DNA of 64,000 bases from a virus, in the IMG/VR virus record IMGVR_UViG_3300043177_000234; one strand, written 5' to 3'. Within the stretch, counting starts at the first letter, position 1; every line of letters starts with the position of its first letter. The notes beneath the pieces are model-generated. The model made no database searches and was not told where the DNA came from. It was given only the letters and a program-made list of their open reading frames with translations. Both the position numbers and the translations under genes were made by a program. Below, piece by piece: positions 1,830-53,146 of the stretch.

Positions 1830-1902
1830 TTAGGTCAAGGGGCGCGGTCAGCATTTTTTTCAAAGTGTTGGTTTGACGATAACTGAACCACATCGGACCT
1901 AA
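1830..1902 (-). ncRNA. Y-RNA-like RNA, free-standing copy 1
   Basis: UUAGGUC[C]GA pairs with UUGACCUAA; upper stem UGUGGU-U-CAG/CUGACCGCG; UUAUC follows the upper stem. Confidence 0.75.
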
Positions 1903-2539: not shown

Positions 2540-2553
2540 GAAATCCTTTAATT

Positions 2554-3418: not shown

Positions 3419-3425
3419 TCTCTTT

Positions 3426-3501
3426 TGGTGGTGACAGCATGAGTCGAACATGCATAGGCCGGCGTATGAAACCAGTGCACTGCCAATTGTGCTATGTCAC
3501 C
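3426..3501 (-). tRNA. tRNA with CAU anticodon (Met or Ile2)
   Basis: GGTGACA/TGTCACC acceptor, CTGGT-TTCATAC-GCCGG arm, ACCA end. Confidence 0.85.
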
Positions 3502-3739
3502 TCATCATATGGTAATCTTCATTTTCTTCATCTTGCGACCATTGGGACATATACAATGTGCTTTAATGCCACAATCAGCATTGCCTAAAGGGTCTTGCGT
3601 ATAACCGATTGTATTCACCACCCCAGAATGGGGCAAGGCCCGCACATGGGGACTTTAATACCTGGCAGATGGGGAAACAGTAAATTCCTTCCATAAAGAG
3701 GAAGATCTCACATTACTCCTGTAATCTGACCGTGTAGAA

Positions 3740-3815
3740 TGGAGAGAGTAGAGGGGTTCAAACCCTCGGCCTCCGACTTGGAAGGATGGCGCTCTATCAG
3801 CTGAGCTATACTCTC
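3740..3815 (-). tRNA. trnG: tRNA-Gly(UCC), partly degenerate
   Basis: GAGAGTA/TACTCTC-TCCA; loop CTTCCAA; two mismatches in the anticodon stem; T loop TTTGAAC. Confidence 0.75.
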
Positions 3816-3821
3816 ATAAGA

Positions 3822-4207
3822 TTACAGTTCGTACCTAACTTGCCCGCCGTCTGTGAATAACCCTACTCGGGCATATACCTCGAAGGGGATAATTGACTCG
3901 TAACCCTTAGCAAGAAGTTCATTGGAATAGACAGTAGACTTTTTATCTACCGATATCGTAATGTGCGGAATTGCATGATTACTCACAACTCCCATTGGCT
4001 CTACCGCAACAGCTTGCCCGTATTCATCGTCCGTACGCGTAGCCTGATTAGCTGTCCAAGCGGCAGCCCTTCAATCTCCTCATCCTAGGGATTAAAGTTG
4101 ATGGTCATGTGGTGAGCAAAAACCTTGGGGTGCTTAGGGGGAAGGGCGCTAAGTATCGCTGCTCGACTCTCCTCCGGAAGAAATGCCCCTGCGTAAATTA
4201 CCGCCAT
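3822..4207 (-). pseudogene. 2H phosphoesterase (tRNA-ligase CPD-like), broken by an amber codon and a frameshift
   Basis: Hand translation: MAVIYAGAFLPEESRAAILSALPPKHPKVFAHHMTINFNP*DEE.../...DDEYGQAVAV...NHAIPHITISV...SNELL; two HxT motifs; TAG at 4085-4087. Confidence 0.7.
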
Positions 4208-4412
4208 CTACCCACTCCATAAGAATATCGAAGCAATCTTCGCAAAGATCTAGGTCAAACACCTGTTCATCCCTGCGCGACTCGTATCCCCAATATGCAG
4301 TTAAATTGGCATGTTCGTAATTCATCTGACGCCTGCATGACTGTCCGCATCGATCACAAATAATATCCGCTAGGGCTTCAACTACGGTCTCGACTCTGGT
4401 CATCCTCCTCAT
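4149..4412 (-). CDS. Small Cys-containing hypothetical protein
   Basis: ORF track; CDRCGQSC and LCEDCF. Confidence 0.6.
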   Translation of the reverse strand: MRRMTRVETVVEALADIICDRCGQSCRRQMNYEHANLTAYWGYESRRDEQVFDLDLCEDCFDILMEWVDGGNLRRGISSGGESSSDT

Positions 4413-4914
4413 CTACGGGCTCCCGGATATCTCTAAAATGAGCAGTTAGAGCATTTAGTGCAAAAGTACGTATCTTCTGTGGCCAATTATTTTGGCTAAG
4501 TGCGATAGGTAGATTTGCCTTCCATAGTAGGAGCGCATAGGTGCGCGAGGCCGGCAAACCTGTCATATTAAAACTACGCAAGTGTTTTAGTTGTGTGGAA
4601 AAGACTCTCTGAACTTTTCCAATCAGTTTGGGGTCTAAACTCTTTCTTAGCTCGGATTATAAGATCTGGGCCGCCTCAGAGGCTCCAAAAAGATTCAATT
4701 CACTCATGTGCGATAGAGTTTTGTAGCCACCGGAATTACCCGTGTGGTTCTGTGAAATAGGAATACGCTGCCTGTATGTAGATTTACTACAGTGTAACTT
4801 TCTTCGGAAGCTTGAGCGGTCAGAGGCCACAGATCAGTTTCTGAAATAGACTTCCCGAGATTTTTTACTGCAAACTCTGGCACAAAGGTACCGCAGGTCG
4901 GAAGATTTTCCAAT

Positions 4915-5229
4915 TCAATGGCGGGCACTTCTGCTGTATCCGTTCGCAAAATCATCATACGTAGTTCCTGCGCGAGCAACAAATTCCGATAAGTAAAACC
5001 ACCCCATCCGATCTGGGCTGTATCCGGGTGGCATCTGCGGTCGGTCAAGATCTATGCCATAGTAATCGCGTCTTATATTTCCGGAATATAATCGATTATT
5101 TTCCCATAGTAGATCTATGCGGCGCTGAATCTCGGCAGAGATTACTTCAGCTATCTCGGGCACTTCTCTATTATAAACTTTAATTCTAGCCATTAGGTAG
5201 GCAAGCGTCTCTTTACTATAGCACTTCAT
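4915..5229 (-). CDS. Hypothetical protein
   Basis: ORF track. Confidence 0.5.
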   Translation of the reverse strand: MKCYSKETLAYLMARIKVYNREVPEIAEVISAEIQRRIDLLWENNRLYSGNIRRDYYGIDLDRPQMPPGYSPDRMGWFYLSEFVARAGTTYDDFANGYSRSARH

Positions 5230-5236
5230 AGTTAAT

Positions 5237-5366
5237 TGGTGGGGACGGAGGGACTCGAACCCTCATGCTGTTTAGGCGCAGGAATCTTGGCGATTGGTGT
5301 CGGAGTCGAACCAACATATACCTTACCAATCAAATCCTGTGTGTCTACCAGTTCCACCACGTCCCC
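5237..5366 (-). tRNA. trnL: tRNA-Leu(UAG) interrupted at 34/35 by a 44-nt minihelix insert (5288-5331)
   Basis: Removing 5288-5331 gives an 86-nt class II tRNA: GGGGACG/CGTCCCC-ACCA, CAGGA-TTTAGAT-TCCTG arm, long variable arm. Confidence 0.88.
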
Positions 5367-5399
5367 ATACTAATTATTTACGATACATGCGGAGGGCTT

Positions 5400-5831
5400 A
5401 TGGACCTATACTTTGAAGATGTTGACTGCTATATTAGCGTAGAGCCGGAAGATTTCAGCGAAACTTTTGTTGTTGATGCCGAGATTTCCGATGCAGCCGC
5501 TGACCTACTCATTACTGCAAATGAACTTGATGAGGTGGGATTTTCCTCCTTAGCCAATACTATGGACTCCATCCTGATGAAGTTAGCGGCAAAGTATCAT
5601 GGCCGTACAGTTACACTTAACAAGCCATTTAGGACGCCGAAGGGCCCTAAGAAATTCAGCGTATACACTAAAAATGAGAAGGGTAACGTAGTCAAGGTTA
5701 ATTTCGGAGACCCAAACATGGAGATTAAACGCGATATACCGGCTCGCCGTAAATCATTTAGAGCACGTCACAAGTGCGATAATCCCGGCCCCAAGTGGAA
5801 GGCGCGCTACTGGTCATGCAGAATGTGGTGA
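5400..5831 (+). CDS. Conserved large-phage protein with LxxxANELDxxG motif and basic C-terminal domain
   Basis: GGAGG upstream of ATG 5400; C-terminus KPFRTPKGPKKFSVY...NFGDPNM...ARYWSC is recalled from large phages. Confidence 0.7.
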   Translation: MDLYFEDVDCYISVEPEDFSETFVVDAEISDAAADLLITANELDEVGFSSLANTMDSILMKLAAKYHGRTVTLNKPFRTPKGPKKFSVYTKNEKGNVVKVNFGDPNMEIKRDIPARRKSFRARHKCDNPGPKWKARYWSCRMW

Positions 5832-6026
5832 GCTTGTCACTTAAATTCATCGCTCAAATCGTATACCCCCGAAAAACGAATCAGCTCACGTTTCGCGGAA
5901 ATCCCCGCGCGACTCATTCGTAGTTAAAACTTTCTGAGCAGACTCTGGACGAAGCCTCGTTTCAATATGGCGGCCTGCACTGGAGTAATCATCTCCTTCT
6001 CTGTAAATGTCACGGCCATTTTATAC

Positions 6027-6737
6027 TTACTCCTTTACGAGTATAACCTGATGCTGCTCCAGCCATGCATCTGGTAGATGCCGAGGTCGCGCATTGTCCA
6101 AGAAGTGTTTGCGCCAAAAAGCAGTTACCCTCTCCTCCCCCAGATCAGCAACAACCTTGTCTGCCCAACAGTCCATATCCTCGCGAATTCTCGTCTGCTC
6201 TTCAATAAAACCAGCAAGAGCTGCTGTGTTATTGTGCAGATGCGAGGGTAGCTTCGCCCACATTTTTGGGAGGGCATTTGGATGAAGCATCTCAGCTCTT
6301 TCATACAAAGCCTTGGCGATGCGAAGCGACTCGACTACCCGGTTCCATTTCTGCTTATCAATCAGCGCATTTTTGAGAATGGTCTTTTCTGCCTCTGCAG
6401 TGCGCTCATAAGTATCATGGCAGGATACGCAAAGTGCCAGAACGTCGTATCCATTGTGGCGCTTGTACTTTTCCCTGAATGACCTGCGAAAACAGTACGG
6501 CACTACGTGATGGCGCTCTAGATTTTTCTCTGTGCCACACACCACGCATTTACTTGCGCGCGGCAGTAGCTCCACATCGTAACTGACGCCTCGGCCAGCA
6601 TGTTCGAAATTGAGCTTGAACTCCCTATCTGAAATACGAGATGCTAAATTGCGGCCTACATACCACTCCATGCGCTTGCGATCTACATAGGCGAGTGTCT
6701 CGCCTGTATGTGAAATCATTTTGCAGTTGTCGTACAT
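6027..6737 (-). CDS. HNH-like nuclease resembling the C-terminal domain of EXD2
   Basis: YDNC...WY...CVVCG...HHVVPYCFR...HNGYDVLALCVSCH. Confidence 0.75.
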   Translation of the reverse strand: MYDNCKMISHTGETLAYVDRKRMEWYVGRNLASRISDREFKLNFEHAGRGVSYDVELLPRASKCVVCGTEKNLERHHVVPYCFRRSFREKYKRHNGYDVLALCVSCHDTYERTAEAEKTILKNALIDKQKWNRVVESLRIAKALYERAEMLHPNALPKMWAKLPSHLHNNTAALAGFIEEQTRIREDMDCWADKVVADLGEERVTAFWRKHFLDNARPRHLPDAWLEQHQVILVKE

Positions 6738-6756
6738 GGCATCGTCTTTTTGAAAA

Positions 6757-6832
6757 TGGAGCCGGCAACCAGAATTGAACTGGTGACCTCCTGCTTACAA
6801 GGCAGATGCTCTACCTGCTGAGCTATACCGGC
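6757..6832 (-). tRNA. trnT: tRNA-Thr(UGU)
   Basis: GCCGGTATAGCTCAGCAGGTAGAGCATCTGCCTTGTAAGCAGG...TGCCGGCTCCA. Confidence 0.95.
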
Positions 6833-7065
6833 GTAAACCTTACCTCTCTATACTACAGCGCCTAAGGTCGGAGGGCTGCTCCTAAATCCTAGAGAGTGAG
6901 ATCCCAAATCATTATTTTTGCCGTACGTCAGATTGGGAATTGAGTACGAGCAGAGTAGGGCCCGCATTCATTACATAAGTAATAGAGCGGGTTCACCATC
7001 TCATGTTTCCATGTGGCAACTAATCTCTAATCGTAGCCGAAGCCTTAGATTGCATCGAGATTATG

Positions 7066-7196
7066 TGGTGGCCTGAGAGGGACTCGAACCCTCATGCCTG
7101 TGAAGGCGGTTGATTTTTGGTGGAGGATATTGGAGTTGCACCAATCACACCTACGTCCCCCGAGTCAACTGTGTCTACCAGTTCCACCATCAGGCC
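7066..7196 (-). tRNA. trnL: tRNA-Leu(CAA) interrupted at 34/35 by a 44-nt minihelix insert (7118-7161)
   Basis: Removing 7118-7161 gives an 87-nt class II tRNA: GGCCTGA/TCAGGCC-ACCA, GTTGA-CTCAAAA-TCAAC arm, variable hairpin GCCT-TCAC-AGGC. Confidence 0.88.
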
Positions 7197-7393
7197 AAAA
7201 AATCAATCTTTCAACGTCACCTCTGGTTTGCAGAATCTAAGAAAATCCTCTTTCATATATTTCCTGTGCATCTTTCCCAAGTCCGTTCTGCATACTCGTC
7301 GTTTCGGATTCTTCTCAAACCATTCGCACAAACCGGCCCACATTTAATTGGCGTCGCGCTGACCTAGAAGTCCATATACGATAAACATGTTAT

Positions 7394-7666
7394 TCACCAA
7401 TTGTCGTAGTCGGTCACATTCTTTTATTTATCAAAACATCGTACGCTGACGCCCGTGCCAATTGACGTTGGGGCAAAGAGTAGCTACCCCCCCCCCATGG
7501 CTCCAGTATAGGGCCACTTGCCGCCGCCGGTAAGATGCTCAAAATCTTCCGGACTCATTTCCGCCCGCTGTTTTTCGATCAACTCCTGCTTACACTCTTC
7601 GATGAAAGCTTTGGCGGCTTCCAATTCCTTGCCGGAGATGGTGAATGTGCGACTGTTCATATGCAT
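7394..7666 (-). CDS. Conserved phage hypothetical protein, frameshifted near a poly-C run
   Basis: ...YTGAMGGG then, in a shifted frame, ...APTSIGTGVSVRCFD...VTDYDNW*. Confidence 0.55.
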
Positions 7667-7905
7667 TTCCTTGCTACTCCCAGCATTTCGGTCCGAGCCA
7701 CGTCCCCATCCTCATTCAGATAGTAGAGCCAGCCGGGTTCGAATGTTATTCCGGTTTTAACGATATCTTCGACTTTAGTGCGGGGTCTCTTTTTCGAGAC
7801 GGTCCGACACCGCTTAACTGCTCCGTCACGGGTGATCCAATAGATGTATCCTTTTTCGCGCTTGATTCCGATTTGGAAAAGCACTTCGGTACGACCGGGA
7901 GGCAC
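7657..7905 (-). CDS. Small basic protein with an internal duplication
   Basis: GIKREKGYIYWITRDG and GITFEPGWLYYLNEDG repeats. Confidence 0.6.
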   Translation of the reverse strand: MPPGRTEVLFQIGIKREKGYIYWITRDGAVKRCRTVSKKRPRTKVEDIVKTGITFEPGWLYYLNEDGDVARTEMLGVARKCI

Positions 7906-8292
7906 TCACGCCGCCGCCGAAGGAGCATTCTCCACGGTGAATCCACTCACTTCCGCAACGTCTTCGACCAAAAAGCGTCGACCGAATCCATCCTGCTCCA
8001 CGCGAACGCGGGCGCCCTTAGCAAAAAGCACATCAATCTTGTCATTGATGAGTACCTGGGTGCCATCCTGCATGAATACAACGGTCACGTCTGATACGAC
8101 CTGAGATGCGGAGAGTGTGCCTCCTGCATACGAGGGCATGCTGCTGTGCTTAGTGGTGTACTCAATCTTTTCGAGGACACCACTATGAATAACCGTTCTT
8201 ACTGCGCTAAGCTTAGTGGCAAAGCTCTTCGCAGCAAAGAGGCCGGCCACGGCAAGTCCGAGAAGTGCTGAAATCTTAATGACACTATTCAT
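7906..8292 (-). CDS. Hypothetical protein with N-terminal signal/TM segment
   Basis: ORF track; hydrophobic N-terminus. Confidence 0.6.
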   Translation of the reverse strand: MNSVIKISALLGLAVAGLFAAKSFATKLSAVRTVIHSGVLEKIEYTTKHSSMPSYAGGTLSASQVVSDVTVVFMQDGTQVLINDKIDVLFAKGARVRVEQDGFGRRFLVEDVAEVSGFTVENAPSAAA

Positions 8293-8318
8293 TGCTATCC
8301 TCTTTTCTATACTAGAAA

Positions 8319-8384
8319 TCGGTCAAGTGGGTACTGTGGACTGGTTCATTTTTGAGTAAAGATAATCCACAGAAGTCGGACCGA
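8319..8384 (-). ncRNA. Y-RNA-like RNA, free-standing copy 2
   Basis: UCGGUC[C]GA/UUGACCGA; upper stem CUGUGGA/UCCACAG; UUAUC. Confidence 0.8.
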
Positions 8385-8386
8385 AA

Positions 8387-8437
8387 TGGTGGGGGGTGGA
8401 TTCGAACCACCGACGCGGCCAATCTCCGCCTGCTCCC
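8387..8437 (-). ncRNA. Truncated tRNA-like element (one hairpin, T arm, ACCA) between two Y-like RNAs
   Basis: GGGAGCAG-GCGG-AGATTGG-CCGC-GTC-GGTGG-TTCGAAT-CCACC-CCCC-ACCA. Confidence 0.5.
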
Positions 8438-8446
8438 ATAAATAAA

Positions 8447-8525
8447 TTAGGTCTAGTTGATGGCTAGAGTGCCCTGGTGGGCGGTTCATTTTGGGTAAAC
8501 GATAATCTAACCAATTCGGACCTAA
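8447..8525 (-). ncRNA. Y-RNA-like RNA, free-standing copy 3
   Basis: UUAGGUC[C]GA/UAGACCUAA; upper stem UGGUUAGA/UCUAGCCA; UUAUC; loop shares UUUAC(U/C)CAAAA...UGAACC with copy 2. Confidence 0.75.
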
Positions 8526-8530
8526 AGTAG

Positions 8531-8605
8531 TGGTAGCCCCTGCCGGATTTGAACCGACGACCTTATCCGTGTAAAGGATCTGCTCTACCGCTGAGCTAAG
8601 GGGCT
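8531..8605 (-). tRNA. trnV: tRNA-Val(UAC)
   Basis: AGCCCCT/AGGGGCT-ACCA; loop TTTACAC. Confidence 0.93.
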
Positions 8606-8655
8606 GCGGTGCCTTACGTATGCCTTGAACTGCTATATGCTGTAATTAATTACTT

Positions 8656-8727
8656 ATTTGGCAGGGGGGCTCGAACCCCCATCAACTATTTTGGAGACAG
8701 CCATTTTAGCTATTAAACTACACCACT
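8656..8727 (-). pseudogene. Degenerate tRNA-Trp(CCA)
   Basis: GCTGT-CTCCAAA-ATAGT arm and T arm present; acceptor stem poorly paired; no CCA end. Confidence 0.6.
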
Positions 8728-8743
8728 ATCTTGAAGAATGATT

Positions 8744-8870
8744 TAGTGGGCCCGGTGGGACTCGAACCCACACCGCTTTTATTCCAAAAAATGATAACGA
8801 TTCTCTGTCGTACCCAAAGGGTCAGGTGGTGAGAACCACTAGTTTTGTGCTACCGTTACAACACGGGCCC
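8744..8870 (-). ncRNA. tRNA frame carrying a permuted Y-like module (possible GGA anticodon hairpin)
   Basis: GGGCCCG/CGGGCCC acceptor, D and T arms; module GUGGUUCUC-ACCAC-CUGACCC-UUU-GGGU[A]CGA-CA-GAGAAUCGU-UAUC; 3' end ACUA. Confidence 0.65.
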
Positions 8871-8898
8871 GTGTATCAATATTAAACCATACTTCTTG

Positions 8899-9582
8899 AT
8901 GTCTAAAGTCAAGCTCCTCAGCCTAATTCTCGGCTGCCTCTTTCTCCTATTTGCTGGATGTAGATCCAACCTAACTCACGAAGAGTTGCTTGCCTCGCGC
9001 ATTGCCGAAGCAAGGCCGGCGATTGTTCATCTACTTGCGGAAGGTAGTAGTTGCTCCGCGTTTCATGTTGGACACGAGCTTTTTATTACCGCAAGTCACT
9101 GTATCCGTCCCGATACGGAGTACATTATCGTAGATTCTGAGGATAATCCGTATGGGGTTCGCCCGATACTTATTGATAGGGACCGGGATGTGACAGTGTT
9201 TGAGAGTAACGGATTTGAGGGCCAGCCCATGCAATTGTGGAATGAGCAGCTATACGGCTCTCCAAAGATAGGCTCTACGATAGTCAGTATGGGATTTCCA
9301 GGATATTATCTGCAAAACTTTGTTTTCGAAGAGGGTACCGTTCTAGACAAGAGAACTGATAATGGGGTGCGCCTTATCGTTAGTCGCGGAGTAAGTTATC
9401 CCGGAGAATCTGGTGGCCCAGTCATTTCATTGCAGAATGGTCAGGTGGTGGGGTTAGTACATGCATTAGCGGAGCGTATTACCCACATAAATGACGATGT
9501 TCAAGTTCACAACACTTTAAGTCTGTTAGTTGCTTGGTCTGAAATAAGGACAGTCTTAGAGCAAGCTCGTAAGGTTAGATAA
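8899..9582 (+). CDS. Trypsin-like (S1) serine protease, probable lipoprotein
   Basis: FITASHC and GESGGP catalytic motifs; lipobox-like FAGC after a hydrophobic stretch. Confidence 0.85.
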   Translation: MSKVKLLSLILGCLFLLFAGCRSNLTHEELLASRIAEARPAIVHLLAEGSSCSAFHVGHELFITASHCIRPDTEYIIVDSEDNPYGVRPILIDRDRDVTVFESNGFEGQPMQLWNEQLYGSPKIGSTIVSMGFPGYYLQNFVFEEGTVLDKRTDNGVRLIVSRGVSYPGESGGPVISLQNGQVVGLVHALAERITHINDDVQVHNTLSLLVAWSEIRTVLEQARKVR

Positions 9583-9597
9583 CTTTAGGAGTTAACA

Positions 9598-10266
9598 ATG
9601 CTAATACGTAATATTCTAGCAGCTTTCATGCTGCTTGTAGTCAGCTCTTGCGCTATTTTCCGGCCGGCGCCAGTACAGGCTACGGTACAAGAATCGCGGG
9701 GTGCGGTGACGCACATCCTCTATGGGCAGCGTTCCTGCACAGCATTTCATATTGGGGATGGAAGATTCATAACTGCCGCACATTGTTTCGGAGAGGATCT
9801 TGGAGGACCCATGGATGAGGTCCGCATGGTCAATGAACGCAATTTTCAATACTTCCCGAAAGTAGCGAAATTTAATAAGGCAAAAGATCTGGTGCTTTTG
9901 CTGGCCCCTGACTTTAAAGGGCCAGCGCTGTCCTTGTGGGATGGTGGATGGGACGGTCACATTCCGCGCGGAATGGAGCTCGTGGCTCTAGGATATCCTG
10001 GGTACTATGGTCTAGATTTCATCTTCGAGCATGGATTTATCAAAGATATAGTTAACTTTGAAGGGGTCGAGATGGTTGTCTCTGAGGAGGCGTCTTACTC
10101 CGGCGAGTCTGGTGGCCCCGTACTTTCTACTGCAAATGGAAAGGTTATCGGTATGGTAGATGCTGGTATAGAGCTTATTAATTGGCGTCGCTTTCCAATG
10201 CATGAGCATGTAAGCATTTCACTATTTGTGAGTGCCATGGAAATACGTGCTTTTCTAGCAAAGTAA
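9598..10266 (+). CDS. Trypsin-like (S1) serine protease, probable lipoprotein, paralog of the upstream gene
   Basis: FITAAHC and GESGGP; lipobox-like VSSC. Confidence 0.85.
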   Translation: MLIRNILAAFMLLVVSSCAIFRPAPVQATVQESRGAVTHILYGQRSCTAFHIGDGRFITAAHCFGEDLGGPMDEVRMVNERNFQYFPKVAKFNKAKDLVLLLAPDFKGPALSLWDGGWDGHIPRGMELVALGYPGYYGLDFIFEHGFIKDIVNFEGVEMVVSEEASYSGESGGPVLSTANGKVIGMVDAGIELINWRRFPMHEHVSISLFVSAMEIRAFLAK

Positions 10267-10272
10267 ACTGCA

Positions 10273-10458
10273 TCATCTACGCGGACGTGAGCGCCGGGAT
10301 TTCTCGGCGCTTTTCGTTTGCTCGGAAGCGGCACGCAGCTTTTCTTTAAGACTATCCAGTGCCCACTTGACAGCGACAACACCATCATGACCTATATCGT
10401 AGGCTGATTGCTCTAGGCGCACTTCCTCTATCAGTTCTTCGATTTGTTTTATTTTCAT
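10273..10458 (-). CDS. Small hypothetical protein
   Basis: MKIKQIEE... starts just after tRNA-Gln. Confidence 0.45.
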   Translation of the reverse strand: MKIKQIEELIEEVRLEQSAYDIGHDGVVAVKWALDSLKEKLRAASEQTKSAEKSRRSRPRR

Positions 10459-10463
10459 ATAAG

Positions 10464-10540
10464 TGGTTGGGGCGGCAGGACTCGAACCTGCAATAACTGG
10501 AATCAAAATCCAGGGTCCTAGCCAATTAGACGACGCCCCA
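10464..10540 (-). tRNA. trnQ: tRNA-Gln(UUG)
   Basis: TGGGGCG/CGCCCCA-ACCA; CTGGA-TTTTGAT-TCCAG. Confidence 0.95.
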
Positions 10541-10873
10541 GCGAAGTTTCCCCGCTATGATTGAGTCGATGCGCGGGGTGTGCATCTGCCATCCGATCAA
10601 ATGGCGTTGCTTAAAATGATCGCCCGACGCTAATTTAAGAATAGGCGGTAGCGCAACCATACGCTACTTTGCCTCCGAGTTTATAAGGCTCGGTGTCGGC
10701 AGTTATTTAGTGACCACCTGATGGCTTAATGGATCCATCACCCAAGTGGTGGTGCCTAACGGGCACCAGTCGGTCTTTAGGCGACGGCCTTCCAGTAGCC
10801 TAAGCTTCACAGTATCTGGCAATACTTTTCTGCTGCGCACCGTCCGAGGTTTGAGATCTTAGGTGCCGTGAGA

Positions 10874-10969
10874 TGGTGGGAGGGGTTGGATTTGAACCAA
10901 CTTTAACCAGATAACCTTCTTCTATCGGACAATTCAGTCTAGTAGTTGAAGACGGATTTGTCACTTCCC
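10874..10969 (-). ncRNA. Acceptor/T-arm tRNA-like RNA with a permuted Y-like module and no anticodon arm
   Basis: T arm GTTGG-TTCAAAT-CCAAC, CCCTCCC-ACCA end; module CUUCAACUA-C-UAGAC-UGAAUU-GUC[C]GA-UAGAAGAAG-G-UUAUC. Confidence 0.65.
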
Positions 10970-10972
10970 AAG

Positions 10973-11101
10973 TGGTGGAGGGGGCTGGACTCGAACCAGC
11001 GACACAGGGCATTTCATGCGATAACCGATTTCTGTCGGAACAGGAGTTCAAAAAGTTGAAATCGAATTTGTTCCCTGCTCTACCAACTAAGCTACTCCTC
11101 C
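10973..11101 (-). tRNA. trnF: tRNA-Phe(GAA) with a 53-nt permuted Y-like insert (11020-11072) in the anticodon stem
   Basis: Removing the insert gives a 76-nt tRNA with GGGGC-ATGAAAT-GCCCT arm, GTGTC variable loop and ACCA. Confidence 0.78.
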
Positions 11102-11108
11102 AAAAAAA

Positions 11109-11393
11109 TCACTCCAGAGTCATGCAGCTAGTCGGAGGGCTATCGCAAGAAGCGGTGGCCAAATCAACTTCGCATGTCTTAATTTCCTTGACTGAAGACT
11201 TGATATCGTGATCGCATACTCGCTCCGACGCGAGTACTTCAAGACACTCCTCTACAGGCTGACCTGTGCACTCCGACGCCTTGCTACAATATGCTGCCAT
11301 CATGGTACGACATGCACCTTGTTTTTCTTCTTGCGATTCCTTGCAGGCAGAAATCGAGAGGAGTACAAATACATAAAGCAGGATCTTTTTCAT
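11109..11393 (-). CDS. Small Cys-rich lipoprotein
   Basis: MKKILLYVFVLLSISAC lipobox; multiple Cys. Confidence 0.7.
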   Translation of the reverse strand: MKKILLYVFVLLSISACKESQEEKQGACRTMMAAYCSKASECTGQPVEECLEVLASERVCDHDIKSSVKEIKTCEVDLATASCDSPPTSCMTLE

Positions 11394-11411
11394 TTTCTAT
11401 TTCCTTTGTTA

Positions 11412-11534
11412 TGGCGGCGACATCCCGAATCGAACGGGAAACGCGCGTTTAACAGACGAGAATAATCTTCAATCGGACCTCGGGTCGAGTGGCGAAGATC
11501 ACTTTTTCGTGTGATACCATTTCACCATATCGCC
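11412..11534 (-). tRNA. trnN: tRNA-Asn(GUU)-type gene with a 49-nt permuted Y-like insert (11459-11507) in the anticodon stem
   Basis: Removing the insert gives a 74-nt tRNA: GGCGATA/TGTCGCC-GCCA, CGCGT-CTGTTAA-ACGCG (5 of 5 pairs), G73. Confidence 0.8.
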
Positions 11535-11615
11535 ACATGAGGGTGCTTTTTGGTTTTCAGAAGTTTCCCCCTACGCCTCAGGCAGCTGATAGTTTTCTAA
11601 CCGCCACCTCAAAAT

Positions 11616-11748
11616 ACTTCCTAGCAGGACTCGAACCCGCACAGATCATATCGATAATTCATACCATCGGACAGAGTCAATAACCGGTATGGTCGGCTGG
11701 TCACCAGATTTCTCTGGTCGTACTTACCAATTAGTACGATATAGGAAG
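11616..11748 (-). ncRNA. tRNA-like RNA with a permuted Y-like module in place of the variable region
   Basis: CTTCCTA/TAGGAAG acceptor, extended D hairpin TCGTACT/AGTACGA, T arm GCGGG-TTCGAGT-CCTGC; module CAUACC-GGUUA-UUGAC-UCU-GUC[C]GA-U-GGUAUG-AA-UUAUC; no CCA. Confidence 0.65.
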
Positions 11749-11750
11749 GT

Positions 11751-11828
11751 TGGTCAGAGTGGTGGGATTCGAACCCACACGGTATCCAGTTCCCAAAACT
11801 GGCGGCCTACCTCGTGGCCCTCACTCTG
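11751..11828 (-). tRNA. trnP: tRNA-Pro(UGG)
   Basis: CAGAGTG/CACTCTG-ACCA; CCAGT-TTTGGGA-ACTGG. Confidence 0.9.
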
Positions 11829-12367
11829 ATAAACTCGTACACTCTTTCTTCTATGAGATTCCTATATCTCGAATGCCAGTATTGGTGATGTGTTGGGCAT
11901 AGCGGCACCAAATTATCTGGATTATTGTTGTCCCTATCCTCATCCATATGGTGGACTTCTACGATTAGGCTCTCTTCGCAGACGGCACACTTCTTTTTAT
12001 TATTAGCGAAACACACTGTCCTGTAATTCTTAGGAGATCTGACTTCCGGCCCCTTCCTAAAGAATTTATTTGCACATGCATAGGAGCATGTAGCTTTGCT
12101 CTTAGCGGGAGACGCTGGAGTAACAAATTCTTTATTGCAAACGGGGCAATTCTTATTAAGACGTTCGCATTTATACCTTGGCTTACCGAAATGAGTCGTT
12201 GAGAACCCTGTACACATCTGCTTTGCTTTTCTTATACCAGAACCGTTATTCGGAAAACCTAATCCGGTAGCCACATCAGAAAAAGAATTTGATCTTTTAA
12301 TCAGATCAACCAAGAAAACGTCCGGCATGCGCCATTTATAGGCTTGGCGCATGCTATTGGACGACAA
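11807..12367 (-). CDS. HNH homing-type endonuclease
   Basis: CAVC...EVHHMDEDRDNNNPDNLVPLCPTHH; 3' end overlaps the tRNA-Pro 5' end. Confidence 0.85.
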   Translation of the reverse strand: MSSNSMRQAYKWRMPDVFLVDLIKRSNSFSDVATGLGFPNNGSGIRKAKQMCTGFSTTHFGKPRYKCERLNKNCPVCNKEFVTPASPAKSKATCSYACANKFFRKGPEVRSPKNYRTVCFANNKKKCAVCEESLIVEVHHMDEDRDNNNPDNLVPLCPTHHQYWHSRYRNLIEERVYEFIRVRATR

Positions 12368-12376
12368 TTTATTTAT

Positions 12377-12577
12377 TCACATGTCGTACGTCTCAAGCAC
12401 ATCGACGATAGTAGGACGAGACGTATCAACCTCGACCGGGCCATTTACTTCGATGCGATCCCACTCATCATCATCAATGCCGTCCTCGCCAAAGTAACGA
12501 GCTACAAATTCAGGCTCATCATCGATATGCATAACAAACGTGTGGTCTGCACTCTGATACACAACCAAGGTCATCAT
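12377..12577 (-). CDS. Small acidic hypothetical protein
   Basis: ORF track. Confidence 0.5.
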   Translation of the reverse strand: MMTLVVYQSADHTFVMHIDDEPEFVARYFGEDGIDDDEWDRIEVNGPVEVDTSRPTIVDVLETYDM

Positions 12578-12579
12578 AT

Positions 12580-12873
12580 CTATACCCAGCTTTCCTTTAA
12601 AAAGTTTATTGTTCTGTGTTGACGGTCAAATGCCTTTTGGCGACGAAACTCCCTTACACGTACTCTGAACAGGAGATATGCTAAAATGCCCTCAGACAAA
12701 GATAGGGTAAAGTCCGGTGCATCACTCAGGTATAGTCTGAACATATGTCCGCCATACCTGTTGGGCACATACTGCGGCGCGTACGCAATGCTTTTACGGC
12801 CTGTATCAAACTCGCGCACCAGGGAATAGGTGTCATCATGGTCAACAACCCTCCACATACTTGGCTCGCGCAT
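12580..12873 (-). CDS. Hypothetical protein
   Basis: ORF track. Confidence 0.5.
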   Translation of the reverse strand: MREPSMWRVVDHDDTYSLVREFDTGRKSIAYAPQYVPNRYGGHMFRLYLSDAPDFTLSLSEGILAYLLFRVRVREFRRQKAFDRQHRTINFLKESWV

Positions 12874-13164
12874 GCTTCACACTAGCCGTCGAATGTATGG
12901 TGTTTCGTCGAGCTTGATTATGTTACTCATAGACATTGCTGAGCAGGATGTTTGTGGTATTTGCGCTTCAGCCGGTAGCCTGGTCACTGGGCGAGTCCTC
13001 CGGCACGGTGACGACAAGCGCCGCAAACTAACTCATAAATTCGGCCCATGATTGAAATGCGGCATCTTTTGCTCTGCCATCCTGTTGGTATTGGACAAAG
13101 ATCGCGCCATTGCCCAGCTGACGCGCGTTAATATTCGCTACGCTCATGGAACCTCCTGTAAAAT

Positions 13165-13239
13165 TGGTGACCCGTGAGGGAATCGAACCCTCGTTACAGG
13201 AATGAAAATCCTGCGTCCTTGCCGCTAGACGAACGGGCC
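13165..13239 (-). tRNA. trnE: tRNA-Glu(UUC)
   Basis: GGCCCGT/ACGGGTC-ACCA; CAGGA-TTTTCAT-TCCTG. Confidence 0.95.
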
Positions 13240-13315
13240 GTACCAGCGTAACGTGCTGGAGTCGCTGCATCTGGTTGTACTGCACAGTGACCGGCTTGTC
13301 CTAGCAGGAGGATGC

Positions 13316-13391
13316 TGGTGGGTCAGGTGGGAATCGAACCCACGACTTCCGGATTAAAAGTCCGTTACTCTTCCGGCTGAGTTACTGACCC
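13316..13391 (-). tRNA. trnK: tRNA-Lys(UUU)
   Basis: GGGTCAG/CTGACCC-ACCA; ACGGA-CTTTTAA-TCCGG. Confidence 0.95.
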
Positions 13392-13456
13392 GGCGTGGCA
13401 ATTCGAACTGCCGACCTTCACGTTCGTAGCGTAACGCTCACTGAGCTAATGGGGCT
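13392..13456 (-). pseudogene. Decayed tRNA-Arg(ACG)
   Basis: TTACG-CTACGAA-CGTGA arm and partial T arm; D loop and acceptor 3' strand deleted. Confidence 0.55.
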
Positions 13457-13529
13457 CGGTGACGCCGAGTGTGTGGGCTTATGCCCGCCGAGCGGGCCCC
13501 TAGACAATTAATTTTTTATCTGCTACAAT

Positions 13530-14195
13530 CTACAGCATTTGATCATTATCTTTGTGGGAATGTCTGAGAAGAAGACTTACGCCAAAGATTAGGATTGCGA
13601 TTGGAAGCATCCCGTGCAACTTGGCGGTTGCAATAATTACCAGCGCGGCGCTTAATATGACGGATGTGTTAAGAGCCATTTTCGTCGCCCGAGCATGACC
13701 GAATTTCAGTTGCAATGCGGCCCTAAGAATACGACCTCCGTCCATTGGAAATATGGGCAACATATTGAAAATTACTATGGCAATATTTGTCACTCCTAGA
13801 GTAGTCAGTATTGTAACTCCCGAAATGAGCATCCTGCCTGACGCCACGCTGGCAACGGCGGCATCCAGAAGGAGTGCAGCAGCGGCAATTGCCGCACTTA
13901 GCGCCGGACCCGCAAATGCAATTATGACCTCCTGCTTTGGAGTAACTCCAGTTAAATCTAATGATGCAGCTCCGCCAAAGTAGTGCAGTACAATCTTCGT
14001 AGATGGTAATCCGTACTTGCGGGCAGCAAGTACATGCGCATATTCGTGAGCTAGTATCGAAGCAAAGAGCATGATTGCCAATACGACTCCTGCTGCGCCC
14101 AAAGAGAATATCATTCCGCCAACAGCGAGGAGTATGCTCCAATGTAGGAAGACTGGCACACCCAAAGCAGAGCCTAATTTAAGAGACGATCTCAT
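13530..14195 (-). CDS. M50-family (site-2/SpoIVFB-like) membrane metalloprotease
   Basis: HEYAH and NMLPIFPMDGGR motifs; multiple TM segments; own ATG at MRSSLKLG. Confidence 0.88.
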   Translation of the reverse strand: MRSSLKLGSALGVPVFLHWSILLAVGGMIFSLGAAGVVLAIMLFASILAHEYAHVLAARKYGLPSTKIVLHYFGGAASLDLTGVTPKQEVIIAFAGPALSAAIAAAALLLDAAVASVASGRMLISGVTILTTLGVTNIAIVIFNMLPIFPMDGGRILRAALQLKFGHARATKMALNTSVILSAALVIIATAKLHGMLPIAILIFGVSLLLRHSHKDNDQML

Positions 14196-14675
14196 TCCCC
14201 CCCCCCATCGCGCAACCTCGTGAATAAATCTCTTTCTACCCGACATAAAAGTCCACCGTAAAACGGCACCATACCTACTATGACGGGAGTGCTGCACCCA
14301 CCTTTGATCTATCTCGGGTATTGTAGCTAAGGTATCTAAATAGAATCCCCATCTGGCCTCCGGTATTAATGCTCCGAAATACACGTGGTATGAGTTGCCG
14401 CTGCTATAGATGCAGTATGGTGCCCCCGCAGAATTCATATTTGCAATAGAGGAGCAGATGGTCCTAACTCGCTCTAGGCTTGGCCGGCCGATAAAATCTA
14501 TCATTGGCAGATGCACTCTTCTACGCGAATCACTTAACAGCAGACCGGAGGCTATGCCAATCTCGTATCCCGGTCTTATGTTGAAACTGGCGAGCAGCGC
14601 GCCAAACTGAGATTCGTCCACCAACTTTCCTAGATCAATATCGACCAAGCTCTGGGTATTATTTGTAACGTACAC
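14196..14675 (-). CDS. Hypothetical protein, possibly primase (AEP)-like; fused to M50 in the ORF track via a poly-C run
   Basis: HLPMIDF...SSGNSYHVY...DQRWVQHS. Confidence 0.45.
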
Positions 14676-14833
14676 GCCTGGATCAACTGCCGGATAATCG
14701 ACGGGGAATAATGTGCATAGAGTTAATTTCCACTGCGACGCACATTCCCTAATAATTTTAGCTACAAATCTGTAGGGGTGGTTGCTGCAAAGCGCTCATA
14801 TTCCGAAGGCTGCGGGCGCATAAAATTCATGGT

Positions 14834-15505
14834 TCACCTCGCCTGTGACACTTGCTGCTCTTTAACCTCTACCTTGGATGAGCTCTCCATATGTTTTTTG
14901 ATTTTCGTCGCAGCAAAAGCCGCGGCGGCACCGAGAACTGCTGCCATCAGTACCCACGAACCTCTTTCCTCGACGCGAACTTCCTTGTCCAATTCTTCCA
15001 GGTTATACCCATATAAGTCTCCTGTCGTACGATCGCAGAGCGGCAGAATATTCGCTTCTGCACAATTGATAAGGTGCTCTTCGTCGTTGAACGATAGGAA
15101 GTATTTATTCACATCAACATGATTGTGTACGCCGTGCAGATCAATGCCATTAGCATAAGCGAATGCCTCTACACGCAAGAAGTACTCTTTATACTTTTCA
15201 AAAGTCGATGGCTCTACCATTACTCCAAAGACGTACCACTCTCTATTACCATAGCATGTGAACGCTGGTCCCGATGTACGGTGCAGCTTACCTCTCCACA
15301 TCCAGTGCTGTCTATTGTGCGCTTCGAGAAGGCAGGGGCGATCTGCTGTGGAATGTAGGAGGTGTACCGTCTTATGCACCGGGTGAGTATACGTGTATGC
15401 TTCGATGCTCTCGTCGTACTCAATTTGAGTATCAGCAATCTCCTCGGGGAGGATAGCTATCTTGTACTCGCCTCTATCATTAATATAGGATACAGTTGAT
15501 TCCAT
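14834..15505 (-). CDS. Hypothetical protein with an LHRxxGPA-type phage repeat and C-terminal TM
   Basis: WMWRGKLHRTSGPAFTCYGNREWYVFG. Confidence 0.6.
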   Translation of the reverse strand: MESTVSYINDRGEYKIAILPEEIADTQIEYDESIEAYTYTHPVHKTVHLLHSTADRPCLLEAHNRQHWMWRGKLHRTSGPAFTCYGNREWYVFGVMVEPSTFEKYKEYFLRVEAFAYANGIDLHGVHNHVDVNKYFLSFNDEEHLINCAEANILPLCDRTTGDLYGYNLEELDKEVRVEERGSWVLMAAVLGAAAAFAATKIKKHMESSSKVEVKEQQVSQAR

Positions 15506-53066: not shown

Positions 53067-53137
53067 TTGGTCTAAAAGGCGTCGGTGGGGCATTTGTTTT
53101 CAACCATAGAAAGATAACCCGCTAACTGTCGGACCAA
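53067..53137 (-). ncRNA. Y-RNA-like RNA, free-standing copy 4
   Basis: UUGGUC[C]GA/UAGACCAA; upper stem GUUAGCGGG/CCCACCGAC (7 of 9 pairs); UUAUC. Confidence 0.7.
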
Positions 53138-53146
53138 AAGAGAGTC

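What the first reader, a model, noticed from the sequence alone, without database searches (positions are those of the whole stretch)
10973..11534. tRNA-Phe and tRNA-Asn with a circularly permuted Y-RNA module inserted in the anticodon stem
Seen: the Phe gene has a 53-nt insert at 29/30 (AACAAAU-UCGAUUUC-AACUUU-UUGAAC-UCCU-GUUC[C]GA-CA-GAAAUCGG-UUAUC). The Asn gene has a 49-nt insert at 28/29 (AAAAAGUG-AUCUUC-GCCAC-UCGACC-CGA-GGUC[C]GA-UU-GAAGAU-UAUUCU). Each is the same bulged-C lower stem, upper stem and UUAU(C) module as the free Y-like RNAs, but with the two Y termini joined by a 3-4 nt loop and the molecule opened in the Y loop. Removing the inserts restores fully paired 5-bp anticodon stems and 76/74-nt tRNAs with fitting discriminators (A73, G73). 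Established: bacterial YrlA RNAs fuse a Ro60(Rsr)-binding stem to a tRNA-like domain, with the RNA ends in the Ro stem. Here the topology is reversed: true acceptor ends with CCA and an intact anticodon. Inference: these are either introns whose excision and ligation yield a tRNA plus a circular Y RNA, or unspliced tRNAs that tether Ro60 and its partners to an aminoacylated or ribosome-bound RNA.
Basis: partly seen in the sequence, partly recalled or inferred. Interest (0 to 1): 0.92.

Follow-up and report, generated by a model that had tools for sequence, protein, structure and literature searches.

The report
tRNA genes carrying a Ro60-binding arm
In a huge freshwater phage that encodes its own human-like Ro60 protein, a tRNA-Phe and a tRNA-Asn gene each carry a loop-closed copy of the phage's Y-RNA Ro60-binding helix inside the anticodon stem, a wiring of "Y RNA plus tRNA" I did not find described in the papers I could search; whether the arm stays in or is spliced out is unresolved.

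Summary
On the minus strand, 10973-11101 and 11412-11534 become tRNA-Phe(GAA, 76 nt) and tRNA-Asn(GUU, 74 nt) once a 53-nt insert (11020-11072) and a 49-nt insert (11459-11507) are removed. Each insert is a rotated copy of the window's four free Y-like RNAs. It has the GGUC[C]GA/UYGACC bulged helix, an internal loop, a covarying upper stem and UUAUC, and its former ends are joined by a 3-4-nt loop.

New here: the same phage (contig of at least 368 kb) encodes a full-length Ro60 about 25 kb beyond the window start. That protein matches human and Xenopus Ro60 end to end.

Three anticodon-less tRNA-like RNAs in the window carry the same arm. Two of them are paralogues of the Phe and Asn genes.

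Best reading (about 0.5): these are unspliced Y RNAs in which a real tRNA replaces the Y loop, a topological inverse of bacterial YrlA.

Main rival (about 0.3): a new kind of intron. No intact tRNA-Phe or tRNA-Leu gene was found in about 110 kb.

No RNA data could be obtained.

This scan has noted the same architecture before on other DNA. I re-verified one case, beside the Ro60 (TROVE) gene of crAss001.

The parts
10973..11101 (-). tRNA-Phe(GAA) gene with insert, 129 nt including the encoded ACCA. The anticodon GAA lies at 11013-11015.
   Evidence: Rfam tRNA gives 39.8 bits with a 64-nt local skip. ARAGORN calls tRNA-Phe, 76 nt, after in-silico removal of 11020-11072.
11020..11072 (-). 53-nt permuted Y module in the Phe gene, between tRNA nt 29 and 30. 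Its parts are: A-rich linker 11066-11072; upper 3' strand 11058-11065; internal loop 11052-11057; UUGAAC 11046-11051; loop UCCU 11042-11045; GUUC[C]GA 11035-11041; CA 11033-11034; upper 5' strand 11025-11032; UUAUC 11020-11024.
   Evidence: Sequence read. The insert alone folds into the two stacked stems. The model built from the modules scores it 50.4 bits, but it is one of the four sequences the model was trained on.
11412..11534 (-). tRNA-Asn(GUU) gene with insert, 123 nt including the encoded GCCA. The anticodon GUU lies at 11451-11453.
   Evidence: ARAGORN calls tRNA-Asn, 74 nt, after removal of 11459-11507. Rfam does not hit the intact form.
11459..11507 (-). 49-nt permuted Y module in the Asn gene, between tRNA nt 28 and 29. 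Its parts are: AAAAAGUG 11500-11507; AUCUUC 11494-11499; GCCAC 11489-11493; UCGACC 11483-11488; loop CGA 11480-11482; GGUC[C]GA 11473-11479; UU 11471-11472; GAAGAU 11465-11470; UAUUCU 11459-11464.
10874..10969 (-). Anticodon-less acceptor/T-arm RNA with the same Y arm and an encoded ACCA. It starts 3 nt after the Phe gene and is a truncated paralogue of it.
   Evidence: Sequence. Its alignment to the Phe gene has z = 10.2, the best of all pairs, with compensatory changes in the T stem and the Y stems.
8747..8870 (-). tRNA-like RNA with a variant Y arm (GGGU[A]CG/UGACCC) followed by a UUUU/AAAA hairpin with loop UUGGAAU. It has no encoded CCA and is a paralogue of the Asn gene.
   Evidence: Its alignment to the Asn gene has z = 6.5.
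11616..11748 (-). Four-arm tRNA-like RNA: a 7-bp acceptor stem, a long D-like hairpin, a CCAGA-GAAA-UCUGG hairpin, then the Y arm and the T arm. It has no encoded CCA.
1830..1902 (-). Free Y-like RNA with its termini in the Ro helix (UAGGUC[C]GA ... UUGACCUA).
8319..8525 (-). Two free Y-like RNAs, with GUCCGA starting at 8381 and at 8521, each just downstream of a tRNA or tRNA-like 3' end.
   Evidence: Sub-threshold Rfam hits to nematode sbRNA (32.6 bits, E 0.002) and to Y_RNA (20.6 bits).
53067..53142 (-). Fourth free Y-like RNA (UUGGUC[C]GA ... UUAGACCAA), 40 kb from the tRNA array.

Best explanation
The two genes make chimeric small RNAs that stay in one piece. Each is a complete L-shaped tRNA body (acceptor end with CCA, D arm, T arm, anticodon hairpin). 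From the 5' strand of its anticodon stem branches a loop-closed copy of the phage's Y-RNA Ro60-binding module.

The phage's own Ro60 binds the bulged GGUC[C]GA/UYGACC helix of that arm (inferred). In the free Y RNAs a variable loop sits between the conserved UUAUC and the A-rich linker. In the chimeras the tRNA body sits there instead. It would then serve as the effector or recognition domain, as the tRNA-like domain of bacterial YrlA is thought to do, bringing tRNA-binding enzymes or tRNA-targeting factors to Ro60 (inferred).

Shown here: the anatomy, the covariation, the rotated identity with the free Y RNAs, the Ro60 gene in the same genome, and the paralogues that lack an anticodon.

Inferred only: Ro60 binding, absence of splicing, and the identity of any effector.
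For: 1. The module is the same as in the four free Y-like RNAs but rotated. This includes the two single-stranded elements that flank the Y loop: UUAUC, and an A-rich stretch such as AAAAAUG or AACAAAU.
2. The upper stems covary: 44 of 45 cells paired against 22.5 on shuffling. The lower helix also shows compensatory changes, G-C to U-A in Phe and G.U to G-C in Asn.
3. A canonical full-length Ro60 lies on the same contig, on the same strand as the tRNA genes, about 25 kb beyond window position 1.
4. Three further RNAs in the window carry the same arm on tRNA-like scaffolds that have no usable anticodon, so no tRNA could be recovered from them by splicing. Two are the closest paralogues of the Phe and Asn genes and keep their stems through compensatory changes. 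The feature shared by all five RNAs is the Y arm joined to an acceptor stem and a T arm.
5. There is no known intron signature. Rfam reports no intron family. I found no bulge-helix-bulge pairing by inspection. The inserts sit at different positions (28/29 and 29/30).
6. An independent analogue exists. In crAss001, an unannotated 144-nt Rfam tRNA hit (46.6 bits) lies about 270 nt downstream of the TROVE gene gp96. It has a 69-nt insert after nt 29 of the anticodon stem and a 9-nt, non-decoding 'anticodon' loop.
7. Precedent: YrlA is a Ro60-binding module fused to a tRNA mimic, and M. smegmatis YrlA is opened by RNase P and receives CCA (PMC4201824; bioRxiv 10.1101/312249).
Against: - The Phe and Asn genes keep perfect 5-bp anticodon stems, 7-nt loops with U33 and A37, cognate anticodons and fitting discriminators. 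Yet the Asn body is only 43/83 identical to the intact tRNA-Asn at 2554-2629, so it is not a recent copy. Such conservation is what a spliced, decoding tRNA would need.
- In about 110 kb covering the tRNA cluster, no intact tRNA-Phe or tRNA-Leu gene was found. Only insert-bearing genes exist for these two amino acids.
- The phage carries RNA end-healing and sealing enzymes that could close a cut tRNA: an RNA ligase, RlaP, a 2H phosphoesterase, a HAD of the 'Swiss Army Knife' repair type, a metallophosphoesterase and a macro domain.
- The energy model does not favour the split anticodon stem in the unspliced Asn RNA.
- There is no RNA or binding data at all.
Confidence: 0.5

Rival explanations
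1. The inserts are a new kind of protein-dependent tRNA intron. A nuclease cuts at both ends of the Y module, perhaps positioned by Ro60 bound to the arm. A phage ligase joins the halves to give working tRNA-Phe and tRNA-Asn. The released module, linear or circular, acts as a further Y RNA.
For: - Exact removal restores canonical tRNAs with fitting identity elements.
- No intact Phe or Leu gene was found in about 110 kb around the tRNA cluster, while 16 other amino acids have intact genes.
- Two tRNA-Leu genes in the same array are split between nt 34 and 35 by 44-nt minihelix inserts ending in NCCA. This suggests the phage deals routinely with interrupted anticodon arms.
- An RNA ligase and end-healing enzymes are encoded nearby.
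- The insert boundaries coincide exactly with the two conserved linkers of the Y loop. Joining them would recreate a small Y-like loop.
Against: - No self-splicing or bulge-helix-bulge signature is present (inspection).
- The two splice contexts share no local structure.
- No splicing endonuclease turned up among the proteins examined. That check was not exhaustive: about 50 window ORFs and the precomputed Pfam tables for about 45 kb to the left.
- The same arm sits in three RNAs from which no tRNA could be recovered.
- The crAss001 analogue has a 9-nt loop.
- Asn already has an intact gene.
- Asp (and a clean Trp) are also missing from the cluster, so the 'complete set' argument is weak.
- About 260 kb of the genome was not seen.
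Confidence: 0.3
2. The genes are tRNA genes disrupted by a mobile or duplicating Y-derived DNA element and are decaying, without a function as chimeras.
For: The module is multicopy and dispersed: nine copies, one of them 40 kb from the array. HNH endonuclease genes lie within the array, at 6027-6737 and 11807-12367.
Against: - Both halves are intact. All tRNA stems and loops are kept, although the Asn body is far diverged from the other Asn gene.
- The arms differ in sequence but keep pairing through compensatory changes, so the copies are old and under selection.
- The paralogues also keep T-stem and Y-stem pairing.
- No direct repeats or target-site duplications are evident at the boundaries when reading the sequence.
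Confidence: 0.07
3. The unspliced chimeras are aminoacylated and decode on the ribosome while carrying Ro60.
For: Intact acceptor ends with CCA, anticodon loops and discriminators.
Against: From established ribosome structures (my knowledge, not tested here), positions 28-30 and pairs 29:41 and 30:40 of P-site tRNA lie against the 30S head. A 50-nt arm with a 60-kDa protein attached should not fit there. Charging without decoding remains possible and is compatible with the best explanation.
Confidence: 0.05

Closest known systems
YrlA (Y RNA-like A; Rfam RF02553) of bacteria and actinobacteriophages (Chen et al. 2014, PMC4201824; Wang et al. 2018, bioRxiv 10.1101/312249)
   Same: A Ro60-binding module is joined, at the anticodon-stem position, to an L-shaped tRNA-type domain with D and T arms. 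The gene lies in a genome that has a Ro60 gene, often among tRNA genes. I confirmed this setting for Gordonia phage Forza and Streptomyces phage Blueeyedbeauty, which show sub-threshold YrlA hits in the tRNA array beside Ro.
   Different: - In YrlA the RNA ends lie in the Ro stem, the acceptor stem is loop-closed, the T arm precedes the D arm, and there is no CCA and no anticodon loop.
- Here the order is that of a true tRNA, with an open acceptor stem and encoded CCA. The Ro helix is loop-closed and branches from the 5' strand of an otherwise complete anticodon stem-loop.
- The Rfam YrlA model gives no hit in window 1-15000 at E <= 5.
- The Ro helix here keeps both strands in the metazoan form. 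YrlA keeps only a 5'-strand motif.
[quoted passage not shown]
   Same: A Y RNA whose tRNA-like domain ends in an open acceptor stem with CCA, while still attached to a Ro60-binding stem.
   Different: That form arises by cutting a closed RNA, so the molecule ends up in two pieces with four ends. Here the open acceptor is encoded directly and the Ro helix is covalently closed. An anticodon hairpin is also present.
Metazoan Y RNAs (Rfam RF00019) and D. radiodurans Y RNA
   Same: The helix GGUC[C]GA paired with UUGACC with a bulged C, an asymmetric internal loop, an upper stem, then UUAUC about 9-10 nt after GGUCCGA. From memory, human Y1 and Y4 also read GGUCCGA-N9-GUUAUC. The partner protein matches human and Xenopus Ro60 end to end.
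   Different: In Y RNAs the helix is formed by the two termini. In the inserts the termini are replaced by a 3-4-nt loop and the molecule is opened in the Y loop. Rfam Y_RNA scores stay below threshold even for the free copies.
Archaeal tRNA introns at non-canonical positions, and permuted or split tRNA genes
   Same: An intervening sequence lies inside the anticodon stem. Exact removal restores a tRNA. In those systems excised introns can be circularised.
   Different: Those introns need a bulge-helix-bulge motif and the EndA endonuclease. No such motif is present here and the setting is bacterial-type: a tmRNA and phage gene content.
Unannotated tRNA-shaped RNA beside the TROVE gene gp96 of Bacteroides phage crAss001 (MH675552)
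   Same: A tRNA body of the Phe type with a large insert after nt 29 of the anticodon stem. Removing the insert leaves a 5-bp stem (GUAGC/GCUAC). It lies next to a Ro60-family gene.
   Different: The insert is 69 nt and has no GGUCCGA helix. The remaining loop is 9 nt. The TROVE protein is divergent (41 bits to Pfam TROVE). I found no paper describing this RNA.

Membership tests
tRNA (Rfam RF00005) | Cloverleaf with acceptor, D, anticodon and T arms that scores above the family threshold | tested here: met
   The intact Phe gene scores 39.8 bits against a cut-off of 29. After in-silico removal of the inserts, ARAGORN calls tRNA-Phe(gaa) of 76 nt and tRNA-Asn(gtt) of 74 nt. The intact Asn gene is not hit.
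tRNA (Rfam RF00005) | Continuous 5-bp anticodon stem in the primary transcript | tested here: not met
   The 5' strand is interrupted by 53 nt (Phe, 29/30) and 49 nt (Asn, 28/29).
Y RNA (Ro60-binding RNA) | Conserved helix GGUC[C]GA / U(U/C)GACC with a bulged C, followed by an internal loop and an upper stem | tested here: met
   Present in both inserts, with a compensated G-C to U-A pair in Phe. Covariation across 9 copies is 44/45 paired cells against 22.5 on shuffling.
Y RNA (Ro60-binding RNA) | The helix is formed by the 5' and 3' ends of the RNA | tested here: not met
   In the inserts the helix is closed by UCCU or CGA. The criterion is met only by the four free copies.
Y RNA (Ro60-binding RNA) | A Ro60/TROVE gene in the same genome | tested here: met
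   L268:16499-18106, 535 aa, with TROVE 1.9e-44 and vWA_Ro60 2e-63. It matches human RO60 at E 6.5e-135. It lies on the same contig as the window.
Y RNA (Ro60-binding RNA) | Physical binding to Ro60 | not testable with these tools
   No RNA-protein prediction or binding assay is available.
Y RNA (Rfam RF00019) | Score at or above the gathering threshold | tested here: not met
   The best hit is 20.6 bits against a cut-off of 38, on a free copy. There is no hit on the inserts.
YrlA (Rfam RF02553) | Match to the covariance model | tested here: not met
   No YrlA hit at E <= 5 in window 1-15000. The same model does find sub-threshold hits beside Ro60 in phages Forza (52.1 bits) and Blueeyedbeauty (34 bits).
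YrlA (Rfam RF02553) | Ends in the Ro stem, loop-closed acceptor stem, T arm 5' of D arm, no CCA | tested here: not met
   D arm precedes T arm, the acceptor stem is open, and ACCA or GCCA is encoded.
YrlA (Rfam RF02553) | Ro60-binding module joined to a tRNA-type L-shaped domain at the anticodon-stem position | tested here: met
   The Y arm branches 2-3 bp into the anticodon stem. U8, G18-G19 and the T loop UUCGA are present.
Archaeal/eukaryal tRNA intron | Bulge-helix-bulge motif at the exon-intron junctions, and an EndA endonuclease | tested here: not met
   No 4-bp central helix can be drawn between the exon ends (AGGG, CACG / GCAU, CGUC) and the insert ends. This is my inspection. No tRNA_int_endo family appears among about 50 window ORFs scanned or in the Pfam tables of the neighbouring loci. 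The check was not exhaustive.
Group I / group II intron | Ribozyme core recognised by Rfam; size above about 200 nt | tested here: not met
   The inserts are 49-53 nt. No intron family appears at E <= 10.

The most novel reading that the evidence does not exclude
The Y module is a new, protein-dependent tRNA intron. Ro60 bound to the arm marks the two cut sites, and phage repair enzymes (RNA ligase, RlaP, phosphoesterases) rejoin the halves. One gene would then yield both a decoding tRNA (the phage's only tRNA-Phe) and a Y RNA, possibly circular. Together with the minihelix-split tRNA-Leu genes, this would make a phage-encoded tRNA splicing system in a bacterial setting.
Probability: 0.22. Interest if true: 0.95.

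Novelty: new variant of a known kind. Interest (0 to 1): 0.8.

Why it matters
Y RNAs and their Ro60 partner occur from bacteria to humans, and bacterial YrlA RNAs mimic tRNA. How the two came together is still debated; one model derives YrlA from dimeric tRNA transcripts.

This phage holds several stages side by side in one genome:
- free Y RNAs of metazoan type;
- genuine tRNAs carrying the same Ro60-binding helix as a side arm;
- reduced derivatives that have lost the anticodon arm or the D arm.

That series gives a simpler route from tRNA to tRNA-like Y RNA, namely a Ro hairpin grafted into the anticodon stem.

It also provides defined, testable molecules in which Ro60 is tethered to a tRNA of known identity (Phe, Asn). 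The genome is rich in tRNA-repair enzymes, and another phage's Ro60-like protein has been reported to counter a bacterial defence (PMC11482910).

If the arm is instead spliced out, it would be a new intron class and a new way to make Y RNAs.

Tried and rejected
- RNA evidence. Only one DNA run (freshwater metagenome, probably the source) holds the stretch, and no RNA run was listed. Laying that run's contigs showed a single form with no insert-less variant.
- Relatives.
  - There is no megablast hit in the phage collection and no exact match to the Phe insert in viral contigs.
  - Three degenerate pattern scans were run. TAGGTCCGA...TTATC gave mostly chance hits. The free-Y pattern gave 29 hits, several of them convincing Y-like RNAs in unrelated viral contigs, but five such contigs have no TROVE gene. 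The pattern 'Y arm followed by T loop' gave 90 hits, and none passed my descriptor filter as a permuted module in a tRNA setting.
  - Protein-based searches found only 33-35% relatives, plus one 64% relative on a short contig with syntenic tRNAs but no Y motif.
  - The 94-aa ORF between the two genes has no homologue other than itself.
- Covariance model. A model built from four of the permuted modules re-found only its training copies in 146 kb and missed the fifth copy. I therefore did not use it for covariation counts. MAFFT mis-registered the upper stems.
- Candidate Ro60-like proteins inside the window. The 422-aa ORF at 55685-56953 is a viral vWA/MopE-type protein, not TROVE. The 350-aa and 317-aa ORFs gave nothing.
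- Thermodynamic folding does not discriminate between the models.
- Rejected readings: a group I or bulge-helix-bulge intron, an assembly artefact, and a chance resemblance.
Full report
**What is there.** All RNA genes of this window lie on the minus strand. ARAGORN finds 11 tRNAs and a tmRNA. Rfam adds tRNA hits of 126-128 nt that ARAGORN misses, among them 10976-11101 (39.8 bits).

- The Phe gene (10973-11101) carries 53 extra nt (11020-11072) between tRNA positions 29 and 30.
- The Asn gene (11412-11534) carries 49 extra nt (11459-11507) between positions 28 and 29.
- Deleting exactly these stretches in silico makes ARAGORN call tRNA-Phe(gaa), 76 nt, and tRNA-Asn(gtt), 74 nt. It calls neither in the intact sequence.
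- The restored anticodon stems are fully paired. The loops are AUGAAAU and CUGUUAA, and the discriminators are A73 and G73.

**The insert is the phage's Y module, rotated.** The word [GU]UCCGA-N6-12-UUAU[CU] (GUACGA also allowed) occurs nine times on the minus strand and never on the plus strand.
- Four copies are free-standing Y-like RNAs (GUCCGA starting at 1898, 8381, 8521 and 53134). Their ends form GGUC[C]GA/U(U/A)GACC with a bulged C. Next come an asymmetric internal loop, a 7-9-bp upper stem, UUAUC, a variable loop and an A-rich stretch.
- Five copies have the same parts in rotated order: A-rich linker, upper 3' strand, internal loop, UYGAC(C), a 3-6-nt loop, G(G/U)UC[C]GA, upper 5' strand, UUAUC. 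The Y termini are thus closed and the Y loop is opened, and in its place sits a tRNA or tRNA-like body.
- In my hand alignment of the nine copies, 93 of 99 helix cells are standard pairs. In the upper stem 44 of 45 are paired, against 22.5 +/- 2.9 when partners are shuffled among copies.
- The lower helix also shows compensated changes: G-C to U-A in Phe, and G.U to G-C in Asn.
- The sequence is not an assembly artefact. Three independent assemblies carry it at 100% identity, and the one available run shows a single form.

**The partner protein exists.** No whole genome is held for the window, so I walked along the contig by exact protein look-ups.
- The window is part of a contig of 367,953 bp, so this is a huge phage.
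- About 25 kb beyond window position 1, on the same strand as the tRNAs, lies a 535-aa gene with Pfam TROVE (1.9e-44) and vWA_Ro60 (2e-63).
- The protein aligns end to end with human RO60 (E 6.5e-135), Xenopus Ro60 (9e-131) and D. radiodurans Rsr (1e-112).
- It is followed by tRNA-Tyr and four tRNA-Ser genes.
- The neighbourhood is rich in translation and RNA-repair genes:
  - IF1, IF3, PTH2 and a TilS-like protein;
  - RlaP, an RNA ligase, a DNA ligase and ClpB;
  - a macro domain, a 2H phosphoesterase, a metallophosphoesterase, a 'Swiss Army Knife' HAD and MnmA.
- A canonical Ro60 together with helices that match the metazoan Ro-binding site letter for letter makes Ro60 binding of the arm the natural inference. 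It remains untested.

**Spliced or not.** Several points favour an unspliced chimera.
- The same arm sits in three further RNAs that could never yield a tRNA:
  - 10874-10969 has an acceptor stem, T arm and ACCA only;
  - 11616-11748 has a GAAA-capped hairpin instead of an anticodon arm;
  - 8747-8870 has a UUUU/AAAA hairpin and a variant helix.
- Pairwise alignment shows that 10874-10969 is the closest paralogue of the Phe gene (z = 10.2) and 8747-8870 of the Asn gene (z = 6.5). Their T stems and Y stems are kept through compensatory changes. What selection keeps in all five RNAs is the Y arm joined to an acceptor stem and a T arm.
- No intron family, ribozyme or bulge-helix-bulge motif is present (inspection). 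The two insertion points differ by one nucleotide.
- I verified an independent analogue that this scan had noted before. In crAss001, about 270 nt downstream of the TROVE gene gp96, there is an unannotated 144-nt tRNA hit (46.6 bits). It has a 69-nt insert after nt 29 of the anticodon stem and a 9-nt loop that cannot decode.
- Published work gives the functional frame. YrlA is a Ro60-binding module fused to a tRNA mimic that tRNA enzymes recognise, and M. smegmatis YrlA is even opened by RNase P and receives CCA. Phage Ro60-Y RNA pairs are known. A Ro60-like phage protein encoded beside tRNA genes counters a defence system.

Other points favour splicing.
- The Phe and Asn genes keep flawless anticodon arms and identity elements, although the Asn body is far from the intact tRNA-Asn at 2554-2629 (43/83 identical).
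- In about 110 kb covering the tRNA cluster, intact genes exist for 16 amino acids but not for Phe or Leu. Those two appear only as insert-bearing genes.
- The two Leu genes are split between nt 34 and 35 by 44-nt minihelices ending in NCCA.
- Sealing enzymes are at hand.
- The energy model does not favour the split anticodon stem in the unspliced Asn RNA. It ignores coaxial stacking, however.
- Weakening this case: Asp is also missing from the cluster, about 260 kb of the genome was not seen, and there is no candidate nuclease.

I put the unspliced chimera at about 0.5, the intron at about 0.3, decay at 0.07 and decoding while unspliced at 0.05.

**Comparison with known families.**
- The RNAs work like YrlA but fail its membership tests. 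There is no hit to RF02553, although that model finds candidates beside Ro60 in actinophages. The D arm precedes the T arm, the acceptor stem is open with encoded CCA, and the Ro helix is loop-closed.
- They carry the defining helix of Y RNAs, but the helix is not formed by the RNA's ends.
- They are tRNAs by every test except a continuous anticodon stem.

I found no paper describing a tRNA with a Ro-binding arm in its anticodon stem. The library is partial.

This scan has noted the architecture before on other DNA. This instance is the cleanest, because the free form, the permuted form, the reduced derivatives and a canonical Ro60 occur together in one genome.

**Limits.**
- There is no expression, binding or processing data.
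- There are no close relatives, so covariation comes only from paralogues within one genome.
- The covariation alignment was made by hand.
- Only about 30% of the genome was seen.

Noticed in passing
window 5240-5366 and 7069-7196 (minus strand): Two tRNA-Leu genes (UAG and CAA once reconstituted), with Rfam tRNA scores of 45.3 and 42 bits. Each has a 44-nt insert between nt 34 and 35 that folds as an acceptor-stem plus T-arm minihelix ending in GCCA or ACCA. RNase P-type and RNase Z-type cuts would leave 3'-OH and 5'-phosphate ends in the anticodon loop that the phage RNA ligase could seal. No intact tRNA-Leu was seen in about 110 kb.
   Followed up: partly
L268:16499-18106 (about 25 kb beyond window position 1, same contig): A full-length Ro60 gene whose best solved-structure matches are human and Xenopus Ro60 rather than bacterial Rsr. 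Together with Y RNAs that read GGUCCGA-N9-10-UUAUC as vertebrate Y RNAs do, this raises the question of where this phage's Ro60/Y pair came from.
   Followed up: partly
window 1830-1902, 8319-8525, 53067-53210 (minus strand): Four or more free Y-like RNAs. The copy at 8316-8388 gives sub-threshold Rfam hits to nematode sbRNA (32.6 bits, E 0.002) and to Y_RNA (20.6 bits). The free-Y pattern also finds convincing Y-like RNAs in unrelated IMG/VR contigs that lack a TROVE gene (L121, L122, L124, L131, L140).
   Followed up: partly
window 8400-8445 and 2989-3065 (minus strand): Further odd tRNA-like elements. One is a ~51-nt mini RNA, ending about 8395, with a T arm and CCCCACCA just upstream of a free Y RNA. 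The other is a weak tRNA hit (29.3 bits) with a 9-10-bp acceptor stem, a 6-nt 'anticodon' loop and a long variable region.
   Followed up: no
window 8659-8725 (minus strand): An Rfam tRNA hit (42.2 bits) that ARAGORN misses. Its loop CUCCAAA suggests tRNA-Trp(CCA) with an irregular acceptor stem.
   Followed up: no
window 24555-27906, 19684-20832, 62132-63205 (minus strand): An RNA repair and modification set: macro domain, 2H/LigT phosphoesterase, metallophosphoesterase, HAD_SAK_2, MnmA, RlaP nucleotidyltransferase and a PHA02142-type RNA ligase. A tmRNA lies at 34223-34587 and a DNA ligase next to it.
   Followed up: partly
window 55685-56953 (minus strand): A 422-aa protein with no Pfam or PHROG hit. 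It groups by language-model features (0.97) with viral vWA plus MopE-motif proteins and lies 2.5 kb from the second Y-RNA locus. It has a very weak PDB hit to the C-terminal part of a CCA-adding enzyme (E 0.78).
   Followed up: partly
L156:526-669 (crAss001 MH675552, about 96453-96596, minus strand): An unannotated 144-nt tRNA-shaped RNA directly downstream of the TROVE gene gp96. It is probably the Y RNA of crAss001.
   Followed up: partly
L264:19080-19159 and L264:19181-19846: An 80-98-nt tRNA(CAU) hit immediately upstream of a TilS-like (ATP_bind_3) gene. This suggests a phage-encoded tRNA-Ile2 and lysidine synthetase pair. The same stretch also holds IF1, IF3, PTH2, YqeY and SspB-like genes.
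   Followed up: no
window 11412-11534 (minus strand): In the Asn chimera the exon ends flanking the insert are self-complementary (ACG-A...U-CGU, because the stem strand CGCG is palindromic). An alternative fold therefore puts the Y arm directly in the anticodon-arm position and leaves the GUU loop unpaired. That fold is as stable as the MFE (-37.3 against -37.8 kcal/mol).
   Followed up: partly
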